From: Escherichia phage 26
DNA: 42,462 nucleotides
Direction: 5' to 3' (one strand)
Sequence record: NC_073320.1
Shown here: piece after piece, positions 8,794 through 29,754 of the stretch
Position numbering within the stretch: position 1 is the first letter of the stretch
Layout: each line of letters begins with the position of its first letter
The notes under the pieces: model-generated
The model's database searches: none
Told to the model about the DNA's origin: nothing
The model's input: the letters and a program-made list of their open reading frames with translations, nothing else
Made by a program: the position numbers and the translations under genes

Positions 8794-9262
8794 TCTAAAA
8801 CCCTCATTATCAGTTAACGAAACAGAGTATACATTGCGAATAATGGGAAATCAAACATAATCGCACCTATTGACATTATGAAAATATTCGTTTAAGGTGC
8901 TTCTATATCTTAGTTACTTTGATTCTTGTTCACCTTGTAAGAATGCTTAACCCGTGCGTTAAGCAAAGGGTTAAGCAGCAGGCTTACTGAACACGAGAAT
9001 TATTGTAACTTTCCTTCCTAAGTATCTCCGGTTGCCCTGGGCAAGCTATATTCTCATCGGCAGCATATCTCTTAAGTATCTGATTTTCTTAATGTGCCGT
9101 AGATTCGCAACCGTAAAAATGTAACGATTATTGGGCAGGCTTAAGGCCTGCCCTTTAGTTACCAAGTAATAAGAATAAAGGCACAACCCCTGCATGAAGA
9201 ATCACAACGGCAACGTAACTATCCTCTTGCACACCCCAACATAATAGGATACTATTCACTTA
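8794..9262. other. 469-bp non-coding region between divergent early arms; candidate origin/regulatory hub
   Basis: no ORF over 16 codons on either strand; GTTAAGC x3 (8945-8976), TAAGTATCT x2 (9019-9027, 9073-9081), hairpin GGGCAGGC-TTAAG-GCCTGCCC (9133-9153), dyad copy at 9243. Confidence 0.3.
9243..9256. promoter_or_regulatory. AATAG-N4-CTATT dyad copy upstream of first rightward gene
   Basis: flanks (ccaaCATAATAGGATACTATTCA) match the reverse complement of the 23-bp element at 19486 and 29732. Confidence 0.4.
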
Positions 9263-14900: not shown

Positions 14901-15169
14901 GCCACAAGAAATTTGCAATTAGCCGTGAGCACGCCGCCTGTGCGGTAGACGATATACGAGAAACGGCGCGGCTTGGTGATGAGATAGCGGGGGTAAGTAT
15001 GTTCAGTGACATTAACGCAGCAATCGAAGAAGCAATCTGGCGTCGCTACAACGGCGAGCAACAGCGACATTTCTGCCTGGTGCAACGCGGTAACATGATT
15101 GCCGTGGTGCAGGACCGCGATAACAAATACCCGAATGTGATGTGGACAACGAGGAATTTCTTAGGATGA
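14897..15169 (+). CDS. hypothetical protein, ~90 aa (start uncertain)
   Basis: possible TTG start overlapping upstream stop; internal ATG at 14999 is an alternative. Confidence 0.4.
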   Translation: MSHKKFAISREHAACAVDDIRETARLGDEIAGVSMFSDINAAIEEAIWRRYNGEQQRHFCLVQRGNMIAVVQDRDNKYPNVMWTTRNFLG

Positions 15170-15402
15170 TTACCAGCATTCCTAACCTGATTAAAGAATT
15201 TGGCACGATGGCCGAGACATGCCGACAAACCGGCATCAACGAAATGACGATTGCCAAGTACAGCAAAGACGTTAACTGCGAGCGCCACGTAATTTATAAC
15301 AACCGTCTGATGACGCACGTTAAGACAAGCCCGGTGTTATTCACGCGCCGGGGTATCACTAAAACAGAGCAGCGCATTGCTAAAGAGGAGAGCGGGGAAT
15401 GA
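15166..15402 (+). CDS. hypothetical protein with HTH-like segment, 78 aa
   Basis: ATGA overlap; AETCRQTGINEMTIAKYSKD. Confidence 0.45.
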   Translation: MITSIPNLIKEFGTMAETCRQTGINEMTIAKYSKDVNCERHVIYNNRLMTHVKTSPVLFTRRGITKTEQRIAKEESGE

Positions 15403-15548
15403 TTGAATTTGATGATGTTTTATTTGAGGAATACCGAGGAACGGTGTTTTTGACTGTGATGTACGGTGTTTACTCAAAGTCCTTTAACGGGTTTTCGAAA
15501 GCAGATTGCATAAATCAATTACTGCAATGGGTGTCACGCCGAAAATAA
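15399..15548 (+). CDS. hypothetical protein, 49 aa
   Basis: below track cutoff; ATGA overlap with upstream stop. Confidence 0.35.
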   Translation: MIEFDDVLFEEYRGTVFLTVMYGVYSKSFNGFSKADCINQLLQWVSRRK

Positions 15549-15557
15549 CCACACCAC

Positions 15558-15580
15558 AAGCCCTCTACGGAGGGCTTTTC
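15558..15580 (+). terminator. rho-independent terminator
   Basis: AGCCCTC-TACG-GAGGGCT then TTTTC. Confidence 0.5.
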
Positions 15581-15675
15581 TGTACATACCGCCCAATCCC
15601 CTTATATAATCCCTTTAGACGCGTAGGGCGCGTCTAGTGCGCTCTGATGGTCAGACGCATATGCAAGGGGATTCT

Positions 15676-16188
15676 ATGAAGCTGAAACTCAAGCAGCCAT
15701 CGCCAGAGGTGGTGCAAGCTGCACATGAAGAAGCTGTTAGCGCAAACCGTCGCCGTAGACGACCGCGCGGCAAACAGAGCCTTTATCAATCATCCCGTAA
15801 TTCCGCAGCGTTGTGGGACCCGGACTATTGCGATGAGTTAATCGAGTTCTTCGACCGCACGTCGTGGGAGCTTGTGCCTACGTCCAAAGGTGACGAACGC
15901 CCATTAATTCAGGATAAACCGCCATCGCTCGCCCGCTTCGCCTTACACATCGGCGTCACTATCCCGATTATTAAGCTGTGGCTGCGCGAGATTCCCGCAT
16001 TTGCAGAAGCCTATGAAACTGCGCAGGCACTGGAAGAGGCATACTTCACTGAGACAGGGGCTGCGGGCATCTCTGCTACGTTTGCCGCCGCGAAACTGGG
16101 CCTGAATAAGAAAGAAGAATCGACTGGCGAGGGTTCCGAACCTATTGAGATTCGTTTCGTTAAGGCTGTTAAACCGGGGGTTGAGTAA
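15676..16188 (+). CDS. terminase small subunit (by position)
   Basis: 170 aa directly upstream of TerL with shared stop/start (TAATG); basic N-terminus RRRRRPRGK; start ATG 15676 chosen after AAGGGGA. Confidence 0.55.
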   Translation: MKLKLKQPSPEVVQAAHEEAVSANRRRRRPRGKQSLYQSSRNSAALWDPDYCDELIEFFDRTSWELVPTSKGDERPLIQDKPPSLARFALHIGVTIPIIKLWLREIPAFAEAYETAQALEEAYFTETGAAGISATFAAAKLGLNKKEESTGEGSEPIEIRFVKAVKPGVE

Positions 16189-17423
16189 TGGATATTCCAT
16201 TAACAGAACCCCAACAGGACTTTGTATTCAGTACAAAAACACATCCGGCTATTGTCGCAGGACTGGGGGCCGGCAAGTCCCGGGCGGCCACTATGCGTCT
16301 CCTGTATCTCATGTTGCGCGAGCGCGGGATAAATACCCTGTACACCATGCCTACATATGACCTGTTGAAGCTGCGCGCCATCCCCGGTGTGGTTGATGAC
16401 CTGAATATGATGGGGCTTAAGTATGACCTCAACAAATCGGAATACAGTATCCACGTTAAGGGGTACGGCACTATGTTTTTCAGGTCATACGACAACCCGA
16501 ACCGTCTAATCGCTTTTGAAGTAGCCCATTCTGTCGCCGATGAACTTGACGTTCTTACTAAAGAACAGGCATCTCTGGTGTGGCGTAAAATTTCAGAGCG
16601 TACCCGACAGCCTTGCAGAGGGGGTAACAGTATTGCTGCTGTGACCACCCCTGACCAGGGATTCTCTGGATTTGTGTATGACTATTGGGTTACTAACGCC
16701 GATAGTTCTACGGAACTGATTAAGGCTTCTACGTTGTCGAACCCCTATTTACCTGATGGCTACGTCGAACAGATACGCAGGAACTACGACGCGGCTTTAG
16801 CCGATATGTATATCAACGGTGAATTTGTCAGTTTGACGGCCAATAAGGTGTATCACTATTTCAAACGAAGCACCCATGACTCCACTCGCACCTTGCAGAA
16901 CGGGGACGCTCTGCACATAGGGCTGGACTTTAATATCGGTGGATGTTGCGCCACTGTGAGCGTTATCGAAGACGGCAACCCGACGGTGGTTGATGAGTTT
17001 GTTAGCCATAATACCGACGACTTCGTTAATAATGTGAGGATACGGTACCCAGGCCATACGGTTACGGTTTACCCTGACGCCTCGGGCCGCTCAGGCCACA
17101 CTAATGCATCATTATCCGACATAGGTATCATAGAAAAGGCGGGTTTACGTGTTAATGCCCCAAGTAAGAACCCATTCGTTAAAGACAGAATAAACGCGGT
17201 TAACGCTCTTTTGTCGCATAGCCGTTTGAGGGTTAACACTTCAAAATGCCCTAAATTAACGCAGTCACTGGAGACGCAGGGGTATAACGATAATGGTGAA
17301 CCGGAGAAGTTCAAAACACACCCGGCTATTGACGACTGGAACGACAGTTTAGGTTATTGTATGCATAGGCTGTTCCCTGTTGTTCGCCCTGTTATCAATA
17401 CACCAGTTCGTTTCGCAATTTAA
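16188..17423 (+). CDS. terminase large subunit
   Basis: 411 aa; Walker A GLGAGKS; upstream of portal. Confidence 0.8.
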   Translation: MDIPLTEPQQDFVFSTKTHPAIVAGLGAGKSRAATMRLLYLMLRERGINTLYTMPTYDLLKLRAIPGVVDDLNMMGLKYDLNKSEYSIHVKGYGTMFFRSYDNPNRLIAFEVAHSVADELDVLTKEQASLVWRKISERTRQPCRGGNSIAAVTTPDQGFSGFVYDYWVTNADSSTELIKASTLSNPYLPDGYVEQIRRNYDAALADMYINGEFVSLTANKVYHYFKRSTHDSTRTLQNGDALHIGLDFNIGGCCATVSVIEDGNPTVVDEFVSHNTDDFVNNVRIRYPGHTVTVYPDASGRSGHTNASLSDIGIIEKAGLRVNAPSKNPFVKDRINAVNALLSHSRLRVNTSKCPKLTQSLETQGYNDNGEPEKFKTHPAIDDWNDSLGYCMHRLFPVVRPVINTPVRFAI

Positions 17424-17435
17424 GAGGATTATTCA

Positions 17436-18908
17436 ATGTTAACTATGAACGGTCAGAATCAGGGTGTTAAGACTAAACACCGGGAATGGCTGCACCACTT
17501 TAGTAAATGGCAGAAGGTGCGTCATGCCTTAGAGGGCGACCTTATTCGCTATCTGCGCAACGTCGGGAAGAACGAACCAGACCAGACCTACGCAGCCCAG
17601 CGCCAGGAAGAATACGAGAACGGCGCTATCTGCTACAACTTCACCAAGAGAACGCTGGCTGGGATGGTCGGCAGTGTCATGCGCAAAGACCCTGAACAGA
17701 TTATCCCGCCTGAGATGGAATATCTGCTACGTAATGCCGACGGTTCCGGTGTCGGACTGTGGCAGCACGCGCAGGACACGTTGATGGAGATTGACTCGGT
17801 AGGCCGCGGCGGGTTGCTGGTTGATGCACCAGAGACCGCCGCGGCAACGGCAGCCGAACAGAACGCGGGATTATTAAACCCGGTCATCGCATTCTACACC
17901 ACAGAGAACATCATCAACTGGCGACTGACACGAGTCGGTTCAGTTAACCGCGTGACAATGGTCGTGTTGCGTGAGGCGTGGGAATACTCAGAACCGGGCG
18001 CTGAGTTCGAAACAAAGTTCGGCGAACAATACCGCGTCCTTGACTTGATTGACGGTCGCTACCGCCAGCGCATTTATCGCTTCGATGCCGAAGGTGGCGC
18101 TCAGGACGAAGTAATCGAAATATTTCCGGAACTCGGCGAACAGTTACGCGGCAAAATCCCGTTCACGTTCATCGGGGCGAGCAACAACGATGCGACCATC
18201 GACGACGCACCTTTGCTGCCGTTAGCCGAGCTTAATATCGGACATTTCCGCAACAGCGCAGACAACGAGGAGTCCAGCTTCGTCGTAGGTCAGCCAACTC
18301 TGTTCATCGCCCCCGGTGAGAACATGAGCATGGAACAGTGGGCGGAAGCCAACCCCCACGGCGTGCGCATGGGGTCGCGTTCGGGCCATAACATCGGTTA
18401 CGGCGGCAACGCGTTTCTTGTCCAGGCGGGAGAGAACAACCTTGCCAAACAGAACATGCTGGATAAAGAGAATCAGGCCATCCAGATTGGTGCGCAGCTT
18501 ATCACCCCGACACAGCAAATCACCGCCGAATCGGCCCGTCTGCAACGCGGCGCTGATACGTCCGTTATGGCGACAATCGCACGTAACGTAAGCATGGCGT
18601 ATACCGATGCGTTGCGCTGGGTAGCTGCGATGCTGGGGCTGCGCGAAGACACAGAGATTGAATTCAAGCTGAACATGGAGTTCTTCCTGCAACCGATGAC
18701 CTCTCAGGACCGTGCACAGTGGATGGCAGACATTAACGCCGGTTTGCTGCCAACAACTGCTTACTATGCGGCTTTGCGTAAAGCGGGCGTAACTGACTGG
18801 ACTGATGAGGACATCCAGAACGCTATCGAGGATGCGCCGCTGCCGTTAGGTGCTGTCACTCAGGTAGCGGGAGAAATTCCGCAGTCGGCGCAACAACAAC
18901 AGGAGTAA
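17436..18908 (+). CDS. portal protein
   Basis: 490-aa ORF between TerL and head-morphogenesis gene. Confidence 0.65.
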   Translation: MLTMNGQNQGVKTKHREWLHHFSKWQKVRHALEGDLIRYLRNVGKNEPDQTYAAQRQEEYENGAICYNFTKRTLAGMVGSVMRKDPEQIIPPEMEYLLRNADGSGVGLWQHAQDTLMEIDSVGRGGLLVDAPETAAATAAEQNAGLLNPVIAFYTTENIINWRLTRVGSVNRVTMVVLREAWEYSEPGAEFETKFGEQYRVLDLIDGRYRQRIYRFDAEGGAQDEVIEIFPELGEQLRGKIPFTFIGASNNDATIDDAPLLPLAELNIGHFRNSADNEESSFVVGQPTLFIAPGENMSMEQWAEANPHGVRMGSRSGHNIGYGGNAFLVQAGENNLAKQNMLDKENQAIQIGAQLITPTQQITAESARLQRGADTSVMATIARNVSMAYTDALRWVAAMLGLREDTEIEFKLNMEFFLQPMTSQDRAQWMADINAGLLPTTAYYAALRKAGVTDWTDEDIQNAIEDAPLPLGAVTQVAGEIPQSAQQQQE

Positions 18909-18910
18909 AG

Positions 18911-18940
18911 AAAAAGGCCCCATAGCGGGGCCTTAGTTTT
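18911..18940. terminator. bidirectional terminator AAGGCCCC-ATAGC-GGGGCCTT
   Basis: 8-bp GC stem flanked by A-run upstream and T-run downstream; sits between convergent portal (+) and DnaN-like (-) genes. Confidence 0.6.
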
Positions 18941-19460
18941 ATTTAAATCTTGCGGGCATTAGCACCATATATGCAGTGTTTGAAAATGATATTTTGCATC
19001 CTCTGGTTTGGTCCTGGAAATCGAAACGAGCAATTTCATTTTTGTATGCCTTAGAAATCTTGTGCGCGTCCGCCAAGTAGGGCATGGTGAATCCTATGCT
19101 ATCAACCGCCCCAGGCGTGATGTGCGCCACACGCCGCCAGTCAGGAAATTTTCCGTCTACAACATCCACCGGAAGTGTACATATAAGCGAACGACTATCG
19201 TCATAGAAAGAAACACTGCTGTAGTCGTGGTCTACTTCCGCGTAGTTAAATTTATAAGGCTCTCTCCCTTTGATGTCTATGAGAACCCCATTCTCGACGT
19301 TTGTCTTAACATTGTCGCAGAACAATCTATGGCCGTCCGTAGACACTATCAACCCTTCCGGGTCTATGTAAAAAGCATTCAGATAGTAGCGCACATCATT
19401 TTTAGCTCTGCATATTTTTGCCCCTATATACGCAGGGAAAGTAATTACTGTAGTAATCAT
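18939..19460 (-). CDS. truncated beta sliding clamp (DnaN) homolog, 173 aa
   Basis: motifs DVRYYLN, STDGHRL, VDGKFPDWRRV, IGFTMPYL, AYMVLMPARF match domain II and the C-terminal end of domain III of bacterial DnaN (recalled E. coli DnaN); RBS GAGGAGGAG; opposite strand to flanking late genes. Confidence 0.7.
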   Translation of the reverse strand: MITTVITFPAYIGAKICRAKNDVRYYLNAFYIDPEGLIVSTDGHRLFCDNVKTNVENGVLIDIKGREPYKFNYAEVDHDYSSVSFYDDSRSLICTLPVDVVDGKFPDWRRVAHITPGAVDSIGFTMPYLADAHKISKAYKNEIARFDFQDQTRGCKISFSNTAYMVLMPARFK

Positions 19461-19485: not shown

Positions 19486-19508
19486 TGAATAGTACCCTAT
19501 TATATTGG
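19486..19508. promoter_or_regulatory. 23-bp promoter-like element TGAATAGTACCCTATTATATTGG, copy 1
   Basis: identical 23-mer at 29732-29754; contains the dyad; reverse complement gives a perfect TATAAT positioned before the DnaN-like gene. Confidence 0.5.
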
Positions 19509-28088: not shown

Positions 28089-28116
28089 AACTAAGGCCCC
28101 TTTCGGGGCCTTTTTC
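28089..28116. terminator. bidirectional terminator AAGGCCCC-TTTC-GGGGCCTT
   Basis: 8-bp GC stem then T-run; between convergent tail tube (+) and moron cassette (-). Confidence 0.65.
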
Positions 28117-28347
28117 TTACTCGTCGATATTGCTTCGATACTCCCGTAACTTCTCCAGACTTTCAATTGCTTCCGCTAAGTCGGTTCCGGTGTCCTTGTG
28201 CCCACGAAGACCCATACACAGCAGCTTCTTCAATGCGTGCTGTAGCGCCGGGTCGCGTATATCGAAGGCGCGTAGCACATCGTAAACGTCTACTGTCATT
28301 GTGCTGCCGTGAGTATTTGTCATTGTGCGGTTGTATTTTGAAGTCAT
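28117..28347 (-). CDS. hypothetical protein, 76 aa (moron cassette gene 3)
   Basis: ATGA overlap with phosphoesterase stop. Confidence 0.5.
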   Translation of the reverse strand: MTSKYNRTMTNTHGSTMTVDVYDVLRAFDIRDPALQHALKKLLCMGLRGHKDTGTDLAEAIESLEKLREYRSNIDE

Positions 28348-29474
28348 CCCAGCATCTCCGGTGAAATAGTTAAACGTGCGACCTCTCCATATTCTGCGCT
28401 ATATGTTATCACGTTAGCGCTACGACCAGACATCCATCCACCGCGGGAGGCGTATGCGTCTTTCGCGGCTAAGGTGCGGTGTTGCTCAACAATCATGTTA
28501 CGGCTTTCTACAATCTTCTGATGGTGCAGGTGGCCTACGTGGGCGTAGCTATAAACACTCTCGCCAAACGCTTTGCGGAACTTAGCTATCATAATGGGCT
28601 CGACCACCTCAAACCGGCATTTATGCCCGTGGGTAAAGAACAGCGTCGTTTTGCCGTGTCGCACCATCTTGTAAACATCCGGCGACGTATCGACGAACAC
28701 ACGCGGCTCGTTGTCGTACAGCGTACTGAACATCTCGGCCAGCCAAATCATTCCGCTTTCATCGTGGTTCCCTTGCACTATAAGCAAGCGAACATTTTTA
28801 TGCTTAACCAGCGCCATATCTACAACACGGCGCACCATACGAATCATGTAGCGAACAAGTTTTTGGTAGCGAGTGTCCGCGTCAAGGGCGTGACCGCTTG
28901 CCGGCGTAACGGCAACCAGACTATCGAAGTGCGCGAAGTCACCTAACAGGTTAATAACTCCGGTTCCAGCGTCCGGCGCTTTCTGAAACGCCGCGTCGAA
29001 CCATCGGGAGAACAGGCCTTCCGCAATCTTCATATCCCAGTCGTCGCCGCTCTCGTCGGCCCAGGCCAGCATGCCGAGATGGAAATCTGATACCGTGTAA
29101 AGATTGAGTAGTTTATCGTCTCGTTTAGCGCGAACGGCTTTAACAGGCGCAACTGGAGTAATCTCTGACTTCATGCCTTCGATTACGGCTTTCATTAACT
29201 CGACCTGACGTTCGGCGTCAGTGTCGGTCTTAACCCATTGCAATTTAGTGTTGCCGAACTCGTCCACCAGTGACGACGTTCCTTTAATCTTGTAGCCGTC
29301 TGGTACAAGATGACTGACGTCGCGGCCGTGTCCCACGCCTTTCTTAGCCAGCTTTGCTTTACGGATACGAATTACGCGGTCTGAGATGCCATATTTACGG
29401 GCTATATAGATAGTTTTAACTCCGGCGTTCAATTCTTCCTGTAACTGTTCGTCGGTTATTTTCTTCCGGGCCAT
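28344..29474 (-). CDS. HTH domain - calcineurin-like metallophosphoesterase fusion (moron cassette gene 2)
   Basis: N-terminal MARKKITDEQLQEELNAGVKTIYIARKYGISDR; phosphoesterase motifs SDFHLG, GDFAHFD, GNHD, THGH, GHLHH. Confidence 0.7.
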   Translation of the reverse strand: MARKKITDEQLQEELNAGVKTIYIARKYGISDRVIRIRKAKLAKKGVGHGRDVSHLVPDGYKIKGTSSLVDEFGNTKLQWVKTDTDAERQVELMKAVIEGMKSEITPVAPVKAVRAKRDDKLLNLYTVSDFHLGMLAWADESGDDWDMKIAEGLFSRWFDAAFQKAPDAGTGVINLLGDFAHFDSLVAVTPASGHALDADTRYQKLVRYMIRMVRRVVDMALVKHKNVRLLIVQGNHDESGMIWLAEMFSTLYDNEPRVFVDTSPDVYKMVRHGKTTLFFTHGHKCRFEVVEPIMIAKFRKAFGESVYSYAHVGHLHHQKIVESRNMIVEQHRTLAAKDAYASRGGWMSGRSANVITYSAEYGEVARLTISPEMLG

Positions 29475-29731: not shown

Positions 29732-29754
29732 TGAATAGTACCCTATTATATTGG
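29732..29754. promoter_or_regulatory. 23-bp promoter-like element TGAATAGTACCCTATTATATTGG, copy 2
   Basis: identical to 19486-19508; reverse complement supplies TATAAT about 40 nt upstream of the Imm-like gene start. Confidence 0.5.

What the first reader, a model, noticed from the sequence alone, without database searches (positions are those of the whole stretch)
15558..15675. Structured leader upstream of the small terminase gene (possible packaging or regulatory signal)
After the terminator at 15558-15580 the leader contains TTATATAAT (15602-15610) and a perfect hairpin AGACGCG-TAGGG-CGCGTCT (15617-15635), followed by AGACGC again about 40 nt later. pac sites often lie in or near the small terminase gene, but this assignment is weak.
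Basis: inference. Interest (0 to 1): 0.25.

Follow-up and report, generated by a model that had tools for sequence, protein, structure and literature searches.

The report
Conserved two-hairpin leader RNA before terminase
The stretch in front of the phage's small-terminase gene is a terminator, then a host-type promoter whose transcript starts with two small RNA hairpins; these hairpins are kept, with compensating mutations, across at least six groups of related phages, so this is an undescribed regulatory RNA leader, with no evidence that it is a DNA-packaging site.

Summary
The parts fit together differently from its reading. AAGCCCTC-TACG-GAGGGCTT plus a T-run (15558-15583) is an intrinsic terminator. 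TGTACA-18 nt-TATAAT (15581-15610) is a sigma-70-type promoter. The perfect hairpin HP1 (15617-15635) begins at the predicted transcription start. The Shine-Dalgarno sequence and the terS ATG (15676) follow.

The window is a Kagunavirus-like phage. The same layout precedes terS in Jerseyvirus, Cornellvirus, Dhillonvirus, Eiauvirus and Serratia phage Tsm2, whose TerS proteins are only 25-30% identical to this one. The stems change by compensatory mutation: 99% of cells stay paired, 10-15 pairs change on both sides, and 0 of 500 shuffles reach this. The loops, (Y)AGGG and GAUGGUC, stay fixed. G·U pairs outnumber A·C by 24 to 1, so the structure is read on the + strand as RNA.

There is one copy per genome, no Rfam match and no match in E. 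coli genomes. Relatives package by headful with no mapped end here. I conclude it is a new cis-acting 5' leader RNA of the terS-terL-portal operon. The mechanism is inferred: 5'-end protection and/or docking of a host factor. The resemblance to HK022 put RNA is local only.

The parts
15558..15583 (+). Intrinsic terminator that closes the upstream small-gene (nin-like) block. Stem 15558-15565 / 15570-15577, loop TACG, then TTCTGT.
   Evidence: Read. Fold -14.8 kcal/mol, z = -4.85. The hairpin is kept with compensatory changes: GCCCTC/GAGGGC in Kagunavirus, GCCCGC/GCGGGC in Jerseyvirus, Cornellvirus and Tsm2, and CCCGCC/GGTGGG in Dhillonvirus.
15581..15610 (+). Sigma-70-type promoter: -35 TGTACA (15581-15586), 18-nt spacer, -10 TATAAT (15605-15610).
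   Evidence: The consensus scan gives 10 of 12 matches. Across Kagunavirus and Jerseyvirus the hexamers are invariant while the spacer sequence diverges at constant length. TATAAT or TACAAT sits at the same place in Cornellvirus, Dhillonvirus (extended -10, TGTTATAAT), eiAU and Tsm2. No experimental transcription start is available.
15611..15616 (+). Discriminator between the -10 box and the start site (CCCTTT). It is variable and is not part of the RNA motif.
   Evidence: Variants seen among close relatives: CCCTTT, CCATTT, CCAATT, CTATTT, CCTTTT and CCTTAAT. This rules out the outer stem with the SD that RNAfold proposed.
15617..15635 (+). Hairpin 1 (HP1): AGACGCG-UAGGG-CGCGUCU. It starts at the predicted +1, the 7th nt after the -10 box. 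The AGGG in the loop is conserved.
   Evidence: Fold -11.0 kcal/mol, z = -4.16. All 7 pairs show double-sided changes and 100% of cells are paired; on the model-made alignment it is 6 of 7 pairs.
15637..15660 (+). Hairpin 2 (HP2): GUGCG-C-UCUGA-UGG-UCAGA-CGCAU. The apex GAUGGUC (15646-15652) is invariant.
   Evidence: Fold -11.0 kcal/mol, z = -2.99. The inner stem changes UCUGA/UCAGA -> UAUGA/UCAUA -> GCCGA/UCGGC -> UGGA/UCCA, while G38-C44, A39-U43 and the UGG loop never vary except for one G->A.
15613..15664 (+). Extent of the covariance-model match (both hairpins plus 4-nt flanks). It is the only copy in the window.
   Evidence: R1 scores 81.5 bits, E = 8e-16. R2 scores 76.1 bits.
15665..15678 (+). 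Ribosome-binding site AAGGGGA (15665-15671) and the terS start codon ATG (15676-15678).
   Evidence: Read. HP2 ends 4 nt before the SD. In the six groups the distance from HP2 to the ATG is about 14-21 nt.
15676..16188 (+). terS (small terminase, 170 aa), first gene of the unit.
   Evidence: phrog_3064 'terminase', E = 4.6e-72. ORF list.
16188..18908 (+). terL (16188-17423) and the 490-aa ORF I take to be portal (17436-18908). These are the other genes served by this promoter.
   Evidence: terL: Pfam Terminase_6N and 6C. The portal label is my reading of the 490-aa ORF that directly follows terL; no family search was run on it.
18914..18934 (.). Bidirectional terminator AAGGCCCC-N5-GGGGCCTT. 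It is the probable 3' end of the terS-terL-portal unit, just before an antisense gene.
   Evidence: Terminator scan on both strands. The antisense ORF 18939-19460 matches phrog_3007. Dhillonvirus has the same layout.

Best explanation
The interval holds the control region of the phage's packaging operon (terS-terL-portal). An intrinsic terminator stops transcription coming from the upstream small-gene block. Host RNA polymerase with sigma-70 then starts afresh at TGTACA-18-TATAAT.

The new transcript begins, at or within a nucleotide or two of its 5' end, with a conserved 44-nt RNA element made of two adjacent hairpins. HP1 has the loop (Y)AGGG. One nucleotide separates it from HP2, whose apex is GAUGGUC. 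HP2 ends 4 nt before the Shine-Dalgarno sequence.

The element acts in cis, as RNA, on expression of the operon. My preferred mechanism has three parts:

- The 5'-terminal HP1 leaves no single-stranded 5' end, so it protects the message from 5'-end-dependent decay (RppH, RNase E), as in ompA-type 5' stabilisers.
- HP2 keeps the ribosome-binding site free.
- The invariant loops are a docking surface for a highly conserved, probably host, partner that sets how much terminase and portal is made.

Shown: the terminator, the promoter consensus and its phylogenetic footprint, the two hairpins, their covariation, their strand, their single copy per genome, and their spread across genera.

Inferred: the exact start site, the stabilising effect, and the identity of any partner.
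For: 1. Anatomy is at the stated coordinates. The promoter matches 10 of 12 consensus positions.

2. Phylogenetic footprint. In 50 viral-contig loci and 415 GenBank phage records the hexamers are fixed while the spacer and discriminator vary.

3. The same order is found in Cornellvirus, Dhillonvirus, Eiauvirus and Serratia phage Tsm2: terminator, -10 box, 5-8 nt, HP1, 1-3 nt, HP2, SD, terS. TerS identity to the window in these groups is only 25-30%.

4. Between the window and Cornellvirus, the only blastn-alignable DNA in 2.6 kb is part of the NinH-like gene and 15603-15673, the -10 box plus leader.

5. Covariation.
- Manual alignment: 99.7% of 321 cells paired, 15 of 18 pairs changed on both sides, 0 of 500 shuffles as high, and slid controls 20-52% paired.
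- Model-made alignment: 99.1% paired, 10 of 17 pairs, 0 of 500 shuffles.

6. Strand: 296 Watson-Crick, 24 G·U and 1 A·C cells. This means a + strand transcript, not a symmetric double-stranded DNA site.

7. Each genus folds on its own into the same two hairpins.

8. Specificity. Model R2 searched over 770 kb, including about 70 unrelated loci that match the bare sequence pattern. It hits only terS leaders, once per genome.

9. HP1 starts with a purine 6-9 nt after the -10 box in every group, as expected if it is the 5' end of the RNA.

10. The transcription unit ends at a bidirectional terminator after portal. The later head and tail blocks carry a different promoter family. The leader is therefore specific to the packaging genes.
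Against: - No transcription start, half-life or binding data exist for any of these phages. The one Kagunavirus RNA-seq paper gives only coarse timing (PMC12645636).
- A generic 5' stabiliser does not need invariant loop sequences or a second hairpin, so stabilisation alone under-explains the conservation.
- In Cornellvirus, HP1 may start 1-3 nt after the start site.
- The manual alignment was fitted to the structure. The model-made one leans the same way.
- The sequences come from related phages, so cell counts are not independent events.
Confidence: 0.6

Rival explanations
1. A compact put-like RNA. The nascent two-hairpin leader binds the transcribing host RNA polymerase, as HK022 put binds the beta' zinc-binding domain, and makes it resistant to pausing and termination through the packaging operon. 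No phage protein is needed.
For: - Same position and outline as putL: it begins at +1 to +3 of a sigma-70 promoter and consists of two adjacent stem-loops (PMC9378689).
- The essential first helix of putL, A3GACG7/C15GUCU19, has the same sequence as the outer 5 bp of HP1. UAGACG and GGCGCGUCU are identical in both.
- With filters off, the best R2 hit in the 4-kb HK022 immunity region falls exactly on the 5' end of putL.
- Loops that stay invariant across phages of Escherichia, Salmonella, Serratia and Edwardsiella fit a host partner.
- None of the seven small ORFs upstream of terS matches a family of known function, so no Q- or N-like protein is recognisable there.
Against: - The put hit is 8.3 bits, E = 0.27, and covers HP1 only. 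R1 finds nothing at E <= 10.
- put is about 73 nt with a pseudoknot-like stem I, a triplex, and essential U28, G35·A9 and A64. None of these has a counterpart here.
- The unit served is short (3.3 kb) with no strong internal terminator, and it ends at a strong bidirectional terminator before an antisense gene, in Dhillonvirus as well. There is little to antiterminate.
- Later gene blocks have their own promoters.
Confidence: 0.17
2. An operator for a translational repressor or other RNA-binding protein. The protein could be phage-encoded (for example a packaging or head protein feeding back) or a host protein. It binds the HP1 and HP2 loops and blocks or times ribosome entry at the nearby terS ribosome-binding site.
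For: - HP2 ends only 4 nt before the SD in the window, and 14-21 nt before the ATG across the groups.
- The apical nucleotides are invariant while the stems co-vary, which is typical of protein-recognised hairpins.
- Serratia phage Susuwatari replaces HP2 with a second HP1-like hairpin carrying a UCAGGGG loop, as if the loop were a repeated binding site.
- Terminase and portal are needed in small amounts.
Against: - Phage protein-RNA pairs usually co-evolve, yet the loops are unchanged across genera with 25-30% TerS identity.
- No RNA-binding protein is recognisable among the neighbouring genes.
- The loops lack the GGA core of CsrA sites (my own knowledge of that consensus).
Confidence: 0.13
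3. One reading: the DNA here is, or overlaps, the pac site where terminase starts headful packaging.
For: - pac sites of headful phages often lie in or next to terS (established for P22, Sf6 and SPP1; my own knowledge).
- Relatives are headful packagers. K47 was called 'P1-like headful, likely pac' (PMC10783031).
- Many deposited genomes start inside this leader.
Against: - The structure is strand-specific, with G·U pairs, and tied to the promoter. That is an RNA signature.
- The AGACGC repeat is not conserved.
- The motif does not change with TerS.
- PhageTerm on relatives gave 'Random/Random' for SeF1 at 796x coverage, and 'no obvious termini' for fBC-Eco01.
- The shared record start is a convention. 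SeF1 has random ends yet the same start, and Dhillonvirus records start at TATAAT.
- No pac position is published in the papers I could read.
Confidence: 0.06
4. The conservation is due to coding rather than RNA structure. Either TerS really starts at GTG 15637, with AGGG of the HP1 loop 8 nt upstream as its SD, or a short upstream ORF from the AUG in the HP2 loop (15647) is translated and coupled to terS through the overlapping ATGA.
For: - GTG or ATG at the base of HP2 is in frame with terS and free of stops in Kagunavirus, Jerseyvirus and Cornellvirus, reading MR(S/Y)DG(Q/H). It is annotated as the TerS start in FSL SP-031.
- The 10-codon ORF 15647-15679 ends at a TGA that overlaps the terS ATG, both in the window and in Cornellvirus.
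Against: - The frame is broken or closed by stop codons in Tsm2, Dhillonvirus and eiAU, where the RNA motif persists.
- The peptide after residue 7 is not conserved.
- Both candidate start codons are buried in a -11 kcal/mol hairpin.
- ATG 15676 has a strong, unpaired SD.
- Compensatory pair changes are not what coding constraint produces.
Confidence: 0.04

Closest known systems
HK022 put RNAs (putL, putR): cis-acting, protein-independent antiterminator RNAs of lambdoid phages
   Same: Both lie on the transcribed strand just after a sigma-70 promoter (putL starts at +3), and both consist of two adjacent stem-loops. The first helix AGACG/CGUCU and the 9-mer GGCGCGUCU are identical to HP1. In both cases a host-conserved partner is plausible.
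   Different: put is about 73 nt against 44 nt here. put has a pseudoknot-like stem I, a triplex strand, and essential U28, G35·A9 and A64, none of which is found here. Covariance-model similarity is not significant: 8.3 bits, HP1 only. put serves long early operons with terminators, whereas this leader serves a 3.3-kb packaging unit. The hosts here are virulent siphoviruses, not lambdoid temperate phages.
5'-terminal stem-loop mRNA stabilisers (E. coli ompA 5' UTR type)
   Same: A hairpin flush with the 5' end, then a second hairpin, then a single-stranded ribosome-binding site. The predicted effect is protection from RppH and RNase E.
   Different: ompA-type stabilisers work largely independently of loop sequence (my own knowledge). 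Here the loops are invariant across genera, which implies something more specific. The 5' end itself is predicted, not mapped.
pac sites of headful phages (P22, Sf6, SPP1, P1)
   Same: Location next to or in terS, in a phage group that packages by headful.
   Different: pac sites are double-stranded DNA sequences recognised by the cognate TerS, and they differ between phages with different TerS. This element shows RNA-type covariation on one strand and does not change with TerS. No virion ends are mapped here.
Lambda-type nut sites (boxA plus the boxB hairpin bound by N) and Q-dependent late promoters
   Same: A promoter-proximal RNA hairpin with a 5-nt loop, at the head of an operon that follows a nin-like gene block.
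   Different: None of the seven small upstream ORFs matches a family of known function, so no N- or Q-like protein is recognisable there. The loop is (Y)AGGG, not a GNRA-like boxB loop. The boxA-like CGCUCU in the window is not conserved in other genera.

Membership tests
Sigma-70 promoter | -35 and -10 hexamers near consensus with a 16-18 nt spacer | tested here: met
   TGTACA-18-TATAAT, 10 of 12 matches.
Sigma-70 promoter | Hexamers conserved while the spacer and discriminator drift (phylogenetic footprint) | tested here: met
   The -10 box is present in all seven groups. The -35 differs between groups: TGTACA, TTGCCT, or an extended -10.
Sigma-70 promoter | Mapped transcription start | not testable with these tools
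   No 5' end data were found.
Intrinsic (Rho-independent) terminator | G+C-rich hairpin followed directly by a T-run, downstream of a stop codon | tested here: met
   15558-15583, -14.8 kcal/mol, z = -4.85. It begins 10 nt after the stop of ORF 15399-15548. The stem is kept by compensatory changes. The scan tool missed it because it counts the A-T pairs as part of the stem, which shortens the T-run.
HK022 put RNA family | Two stem-loops in the nascent RNA just downstream of a sigma-70 promoter | tested here: met
   with the description of put.
HK022 put RNA family | Sequence and structure homology to put (about 70 nt, stem I with its pseudoknot and triplex, U28, G35·A9, A64) | tested here: not met
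   R1 gives no hit at E <= 10. R2 with filters off gives 8.3 bits, E = 0.27, over the HP1 part only. The element is 44 nt and has no triplex strand.
HK022 put RNA family | Antitermination or anti-pausing that depends on the beta' zinc-binding domain | not testable with these tools
   This needs in vitro transcription and rpoC mutants.
pac site (headful packaging initiation) | Virion DNA ends or read starts cluster at the site | not testable with these tools
   No reads are available. Published relatives show random termini (SeF1) and no obvious termini (fBC-Eco01). K47 was called 'P1-like headful' without a position.
pac site (headful packaging initiation) | Recognition sequence specific to the cognate TerS, so that it changes as TerS diverges | tested here: not met
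   The loops and helix ends are invariant although TerS identity is 25-30%.
pac site (headful packaging initiation) | Acts as double-stranded DNA, so no strand bias is expected | tested here: not met
   24 G·U cells against 1 A·C in the pairs.
Any Rfam 15 family | Covariance-model match | tested here: not met
   cmscan of 15300-15900 at E <= 10 gives only two chance hits, both in 15491-15583, and nothing over the leader.
5'-terminal stem-loop mRNA stabiliser | Hairpin with no more than about 2 unpaired nucleotides at the 5' end of the transcript | tested here: inconclusive
   HP1 starts 6-9 nt after the -10 box with a purine in all groups. The real 5' end is not mapped.
5'-terminal stem-loop mRNA stabiliser | Longer mRNA half-life with the hairpin than without it | not testable with these tools
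   This needs rifampicin-chase measurements.

The most novel reading that the evidence does not exclude
The 44-nt two-hairpin leader is a new class of host-machinery-binding RNA. The most attractive version is a minimal, protein-independent put-like element that reprograms E. coli-type RNA polymerase at the start of the packaging operon. It would be shared by several genera of virulent siphoviruses (Guernseyvirinae, Dhillonvirus, Eiauvirus), and its invariant AGGG and GAUGGUC loops would be the contact surface.
Probability: 0.17. Interest if true: 0.75.

Novelty: new member of a known kind. Interest (0 to 1): 0.5.

Why it matters
Gene regulation in these small virulent siphoviruses is essentially unstudied, although Kagunavirus, Jerseyvirus and Dhillonvirus are common in phage-therapy collections, in the BASEL set and in synthetic-phage work.

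This 44-nt RNA is more conserved than the proteins around it. It sits exactly where the phage decides how much terminase and portal to make. It has clean covariation support and no Rfam entry.

If it binds RNA polymerase, it would extend RNA-only antitermination beyond lambdoid phages and provide a much smaller model than put. If it is a stabiliser or an operator, it is a ready-made, portable expression element for enterobacteria. In either case it is directly testable with a handful of mutants.

The analysis also corrects two points of annotation practice. The common record start between the hairpins is not a genome end. The upstream ATG or GTG annotated as the TerS start in some records is probably wrong.

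Tried and rejected
- Rfam search of 15300-15900 at E <= 10: nothing over the leader.
- RNAfold of 15611-15700 proposed an outer stem, CCCUU with the SD AAGGGG. I rejected it because CCCTTT varies freely without compensation and lies upstream of the predicted start.
- AGACGC as a repeated protein-binding half-site: rejected. It reads ATACGC in Jerseyvirus and co-varies as a stem arm.
- Symmetric DNA operator: rejected on the G·U to A·C count of 24 to 1.
- Plain MAFFT plus RNAalifold (A1) gave a meaningless consensus because the Dhillonvirus and Cornellvirus indels were misaligned. I replaced it with an N-padded manual alignment and with model-made alignments.
- Alignments A3 and A8 were spoiled by weak minus-strand hits and were discarded.
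- Pattern scan of viral contigs with TATAAT-N13-20-GGG-N17-26-GATGGTC: it returned only known relatives plus chance matches. L100 and L128 looked hairpin-like, but the L100 match lies inside a minus-strand ORF (L128 was not checked) and R2 hits neither.
- blastn of the leader against 5,426 complete E. coli genomes: no match, so there is no prophage copy at that sensitivity.
- Genome-record starts as evidence for a physical end: rejected as a convention.
- Search for a published pac position in Jerseyvirus or Kagunavirus: none found.
- King et al. 2011 on put-like RNAs (PMC3187212) is not held.
- The Arg-rich N-terminus of TerS as an RNA-binding arm matched to the leader: not conserved across genera.
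- boxA-like CGCUCU, an RfaH ops-like sequence and CsrA GGA sites: checked by eye and not conserved or absent.

Full report
**What the window is.** The 1-kb stretch around the finding matches 168 phage records at 80-99% identity. Nearly all are Kagunavirus, with some Jerseyvirus. The window is therefore a Kagunavirus-like virulent siphovirus of E. coli (subfamily Guernseyvirinae).

The genes after the interval are:
- terS, 15676-16188 (phrog_3064);
- terL, 16188-17423 (Pfam Terminase_6N and 6C);
- a 490-aa ORF, 17436-18908, which I take to be portal from its size and position. I ran no family search on it.

Upstream lies a block of small genes including a NinH-like one.

**Checking the observation.** Every element is at the stated coordinates.
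- AAGCCCTC-TACG-GAGGGCTT at 15558-15577, then TTCTGT, folds at -14.8 kcal/mol, z = -4.85.
- TTATATAAT is at 15602-15610.
- AGACGCG-TAGGG-CGCGTCT is at 15617-15635 (-11.0 kcal/mol, z = -4.16).
- A second AGACGC is at 15653-15658.

On its own, a perfect 7-bp hairpin is not remarkable. The window has 41 such stems (nested registers counted) against 16.6 expected from a Markov-1 model. The G+C-rich ones, 26 against 3.9, are mostly terminators. The palindrome pattern with 3 mismatches allowed is at chance level.

The two hairpins together fold at -23.0 kcal/mol, z = -3.50.

**Promoter.** TATAAT (15605-15610) pairs with TGTACA (15581-15586) at an 18-nt spacing, which is 10 of 12 consensus positions.

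The phylogenetic footprint argues for function. Across 50 related viral-contig loci and the GenBank relatives, the hexamers and the spacer length are fixed. The spacer sequence and the six bases between the -10 box and the hairpin vary freely: CCCTTT, CCATTT, CCAATT, CTATTT, CCTTAAT.

That variability also removes the outer stem between CCCUU and the Shine-Dalgarno sequence that RNAfold proposed. HP1 begins with a purine 6-9 nt after the -10 box in every group, which is the predicted transcription start.

**Conservation beyond the genus.** The same order appears in five further groups: terminator, -10 box, short discriminator, HP1, 1-3 nt, HP2, SD, terS.
- Jerseyvirus.
- Cornellvirus FSL SP-031 and its relatives TO17 and STP-1.
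- Dhillonvirus.
- Edwardsiella phage eiAU.
- Serratia phage Tsm2.

TerS in these groups is only 25-30% identical to the window's. Between the window and Cornellvirus, the only nucleotide-level similarity in 2.6 kb is part of the NinH-like gene and 15603-15673, the -10 box plus leader.

Two more distant phages differ. Vibrio phage NF keeps the terminator and promoter but has no hairpins. Serratia phage Susuwatari has two HP1-like hairpins instead.

**Covariation.** The stems are rewritten while pairing is kept.
- HP1: AGACGCG/CGCGUCU -> AGACGCU/GGUGUCU -> AGGUGCG/CGCGUCU -> AGAUGGC/GCCGUCU -> AGGUGGU/GCCACCU -> GGCGGGC/GUCCGCC.
- HP2 inner stem: UCUGA/UCAGA -> UAUGA/UCAUA -> GCCGA/UCGGC -> UGGA/UCCA.

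On a manual alignment of 19 distinct sequences, 99.7% of 321 cells form standard pairs and 15 of 18 pairs show changes on both sides. None of 500 shuffles reaches any of the five measures, and sliding the partners gives 20-52% pairing.

A manual alignment can flatter a structure, so I repeated the count on an alignment produced by a covariance model (R2). It gives 99.1% paired, 10 of 17 pairs changed on both sides, 0 of 500 shuffles, and slid controls of 19-61%.

The loops do not vary. GGG in the HP1 loop and GAUGGUC at the apex of HP2 are invariant, apart from one G->A.

**Strand.** The pairs comprise 296 Watson-Crick, 24 G·U and 1 A·C cells. On the opposite strand the 24 wobbles would be mismatches. 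The structure is therefore read on the + strand, as RNA. This argues against a symmetric protein-binding site in double-stranded DNA.

**Specificity and copy number.** Model R1 (Kagunavirus plus Jerseyvirus) finds one copy in the window: 15613-15664, 81.5 bits. Model R2 was searched over 770 kb. That set included the whole window, a 24.7-kb Dhillonvirus locus, the HK022 immunity region, and about 70 unrelated viral contigs that match the bare pattern TATAAT...GGG...GATGGTC. It hits only terS leaders, once per genome, including Tsm2 (E = 0.003), which was not in the training set. Rfam 15 has nothing over the leader. The leader has no blastn match in 5,426 complete E. coli genomes.

**Which genes it serves.** A strong bidirectional terminator (18914-18934) follows portal. 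After it comes an antisense gene (18939-19460, phrog_3007). The next + strand blocks start behind a different, repeated promoter-like element, GAATAGTACCCTATTATATTGG, at 19487 and 29733, with a third copy at 9236 on the minus strand. Dhillonvirus has the same interruption after the portal and minor-capsid genes. The leader therefore belongs to a short packaging operon, terS-terL-portal, and not to the whole late region.

**Packaging.**
- Relatives package by headful, and their genomes are circularly permuted.
- PhageTerm gave 'Random/Random' for Jerseyvirus SeF1 at 796x coverage (PMC9409062).
- It gave 'no obvious termini' for Kagunavirus fBC-Eco01 (PMC9825357).
- It gave 'P1-like headful' without a position for K47 (PMC10783031).
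- Many records start 39 nt before the terS ATG, which is window 15637, between the hairpins (SETP3, SeF1, ZCSE9, UTI-CM001, Bas74, Bas76). SeF1 has random ends yet the same start, and Dhillonvirus records start at TATAAT. I read these starts as a shared convention, not mapped ends.
- The RNA-type covariation and the lack of change with TerS add to this.

Taken together, nothing supports a pac site here, although one overlapping this DNA cannot be excluded without virion-end data.

**Comparison with put.** HK022 putL starts at +3 of PL with the helix AGACG/CGUCU, which is essential for its activity (PMC9378689). The window's UAGACG...GGCGCGUCU is identical over those bases, and both RNAs are two adjacent stem-loops.

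With filters off, the top R2 hit in the HK022 region falls exactly on the 5' end of putL. It scores only 8.3 bits, E = 0.27, and covers HP1 alone. put is about 73 nt with a pseudoknot-like stem I, a triplex and specific essential bases, none of which is found here. The operon served here has little to antiterminate. I keep 'works like put' as a live minority hypothesis and reject membership of the put family.

**Coding alternatives.** GTG 15637 has AGGG 8 nt upstream. It is in frame with terS in Kagunavirus, Jerseyvirus and Cornellvirus, and it is the annotated start in FSL SP-031. A 10-codon ORF from the AUG in the HP2 loop ends at a TGA that overlaps the terS ATG. Neither frame is kept in Tsm2, Dhillonvirus or eiAU. 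Both candidate start codons are buried in a stable hairpin, whereas ATG 15676 has a strong, open SD.

**Verdict.**
- The element is a well-supported, apparently undescribed cis-acting leader RNA of the packaging operon, conserved in at least six phage groups.
- How it works is inferred. My estimates are 5'-end protection plus a conserved host partner (about 0.35), put-like action on RNA polymerase (about 0.17), a translational operator (about 0.13), pac (about 0.06) and coding (about 0.04).

Noticed in passing
window 19487-19508 (+), 29733-29754 (+), 9236-9257 (-). Looser copies at 2769, 5581, 5626, 10338, 10657 (-), 13713 (+) and 41787/41789.: A separate repeated promoter-like element, GAATAGTACCCTATTATATTGG: 3 copies against 0 expected. 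The looser form AATAGT-N4-TATTAT has 12 matches against 2.9 expected. The copies I read in sequence (19487, 29733) are intergenic and point towards the genes that follow them. The element contains the inverted repeat AATAG...CTATT overlapping a -10-like TATTAT, and it matches the 'phage promoter' consensus reported for Kagunavirus fBC-Eco01. It probably marks a regulated promoter class distinct from the terS promoter.
   Followed up: partly
window 18914-18934 and 28093-28112: Two near-identical bidirectional terminators, AAGGCCCC-N4/5-GGGGCCTT. Each sits at the end of a minus-strand gene embedded in the + strand structural region: 18939-19460 (clamp- or RusA-like, phrog_3007) and 28344-29474 (exonuclease, phrog_704). 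Dhillonvirus also has an antisense clamp-like gene after its portal and minor-capsid genes.
   Followed up: partly
window 15637; records NC_009232 (SETP3), ON809761 (SeF1), NC_073212, OM810255, PQ850627, PQ850632; loci L028, L040, L044, L046, L047; Dhillonvirus L060, L061, L065, L068: Dozens of deposited genomes begin exactly 39 nt before the terS ATG, between the two hairpins. Dhillonvirus records begin at the TATAAT box. This looks like a physical end but is a convention: SeF1 has random termini yet the same start.
   Followed up: yes
window 15637-15675; L051 1042: An in-frame GTG or ATG at the base of HP2, with AGGG 8 nt upstream, gives a possible 13-15 residue N-terminal extension of TerS, MR(S/Y)DG(Q/H). 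It is annotated as the TerS start in FSL SP-031 but is closed by a stop codon, or out of frame, in Tsm2, Dhillonvirus and eiAU. It is probably an annotation artefact.
   Followed up: partly
window 15647-15679: The invariant AUG in the HP2 loop opens a 10-codon ORF (MVRRICKGIL) whose TGA overlaps the terS ATG (ATGA). Cornellvirus has the same overlap. The ORF ends elsewhere in Jerseyvirus, Tsm2, Dhillonvirus and eiAU.
   Followed up: partly
L081 about 590-660 (Serratia phage Susuwatari, ON287371): Upstream of its terS this phage has two hairpins that both carry HP1-type loops, UCUGGGG and UCAGGGG, and no GAUGGUC hairpin. This hints that the G-rich loop is the key recognised feature.
   Followed up: no
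L078 (Salmonella phage PSP2-22, ON886116, marked UNVERIFIED_ORG): In this record a terminase large-subunit CDS ends about 100 nt upstream of the Cornellvirus-type leader and terS, and the usual terminator is missing. This is an odd gene order that may be an assembly or permutation artefact.
   Followed up: no
window 15142-15402 and L051 564-716: Apart from the leader, the NinH-like gene is the only DNA in this 2.6-kb region that still aligns between Kagunavirus and Cornellvirus (71% over 153 nt).
   Followed up: no
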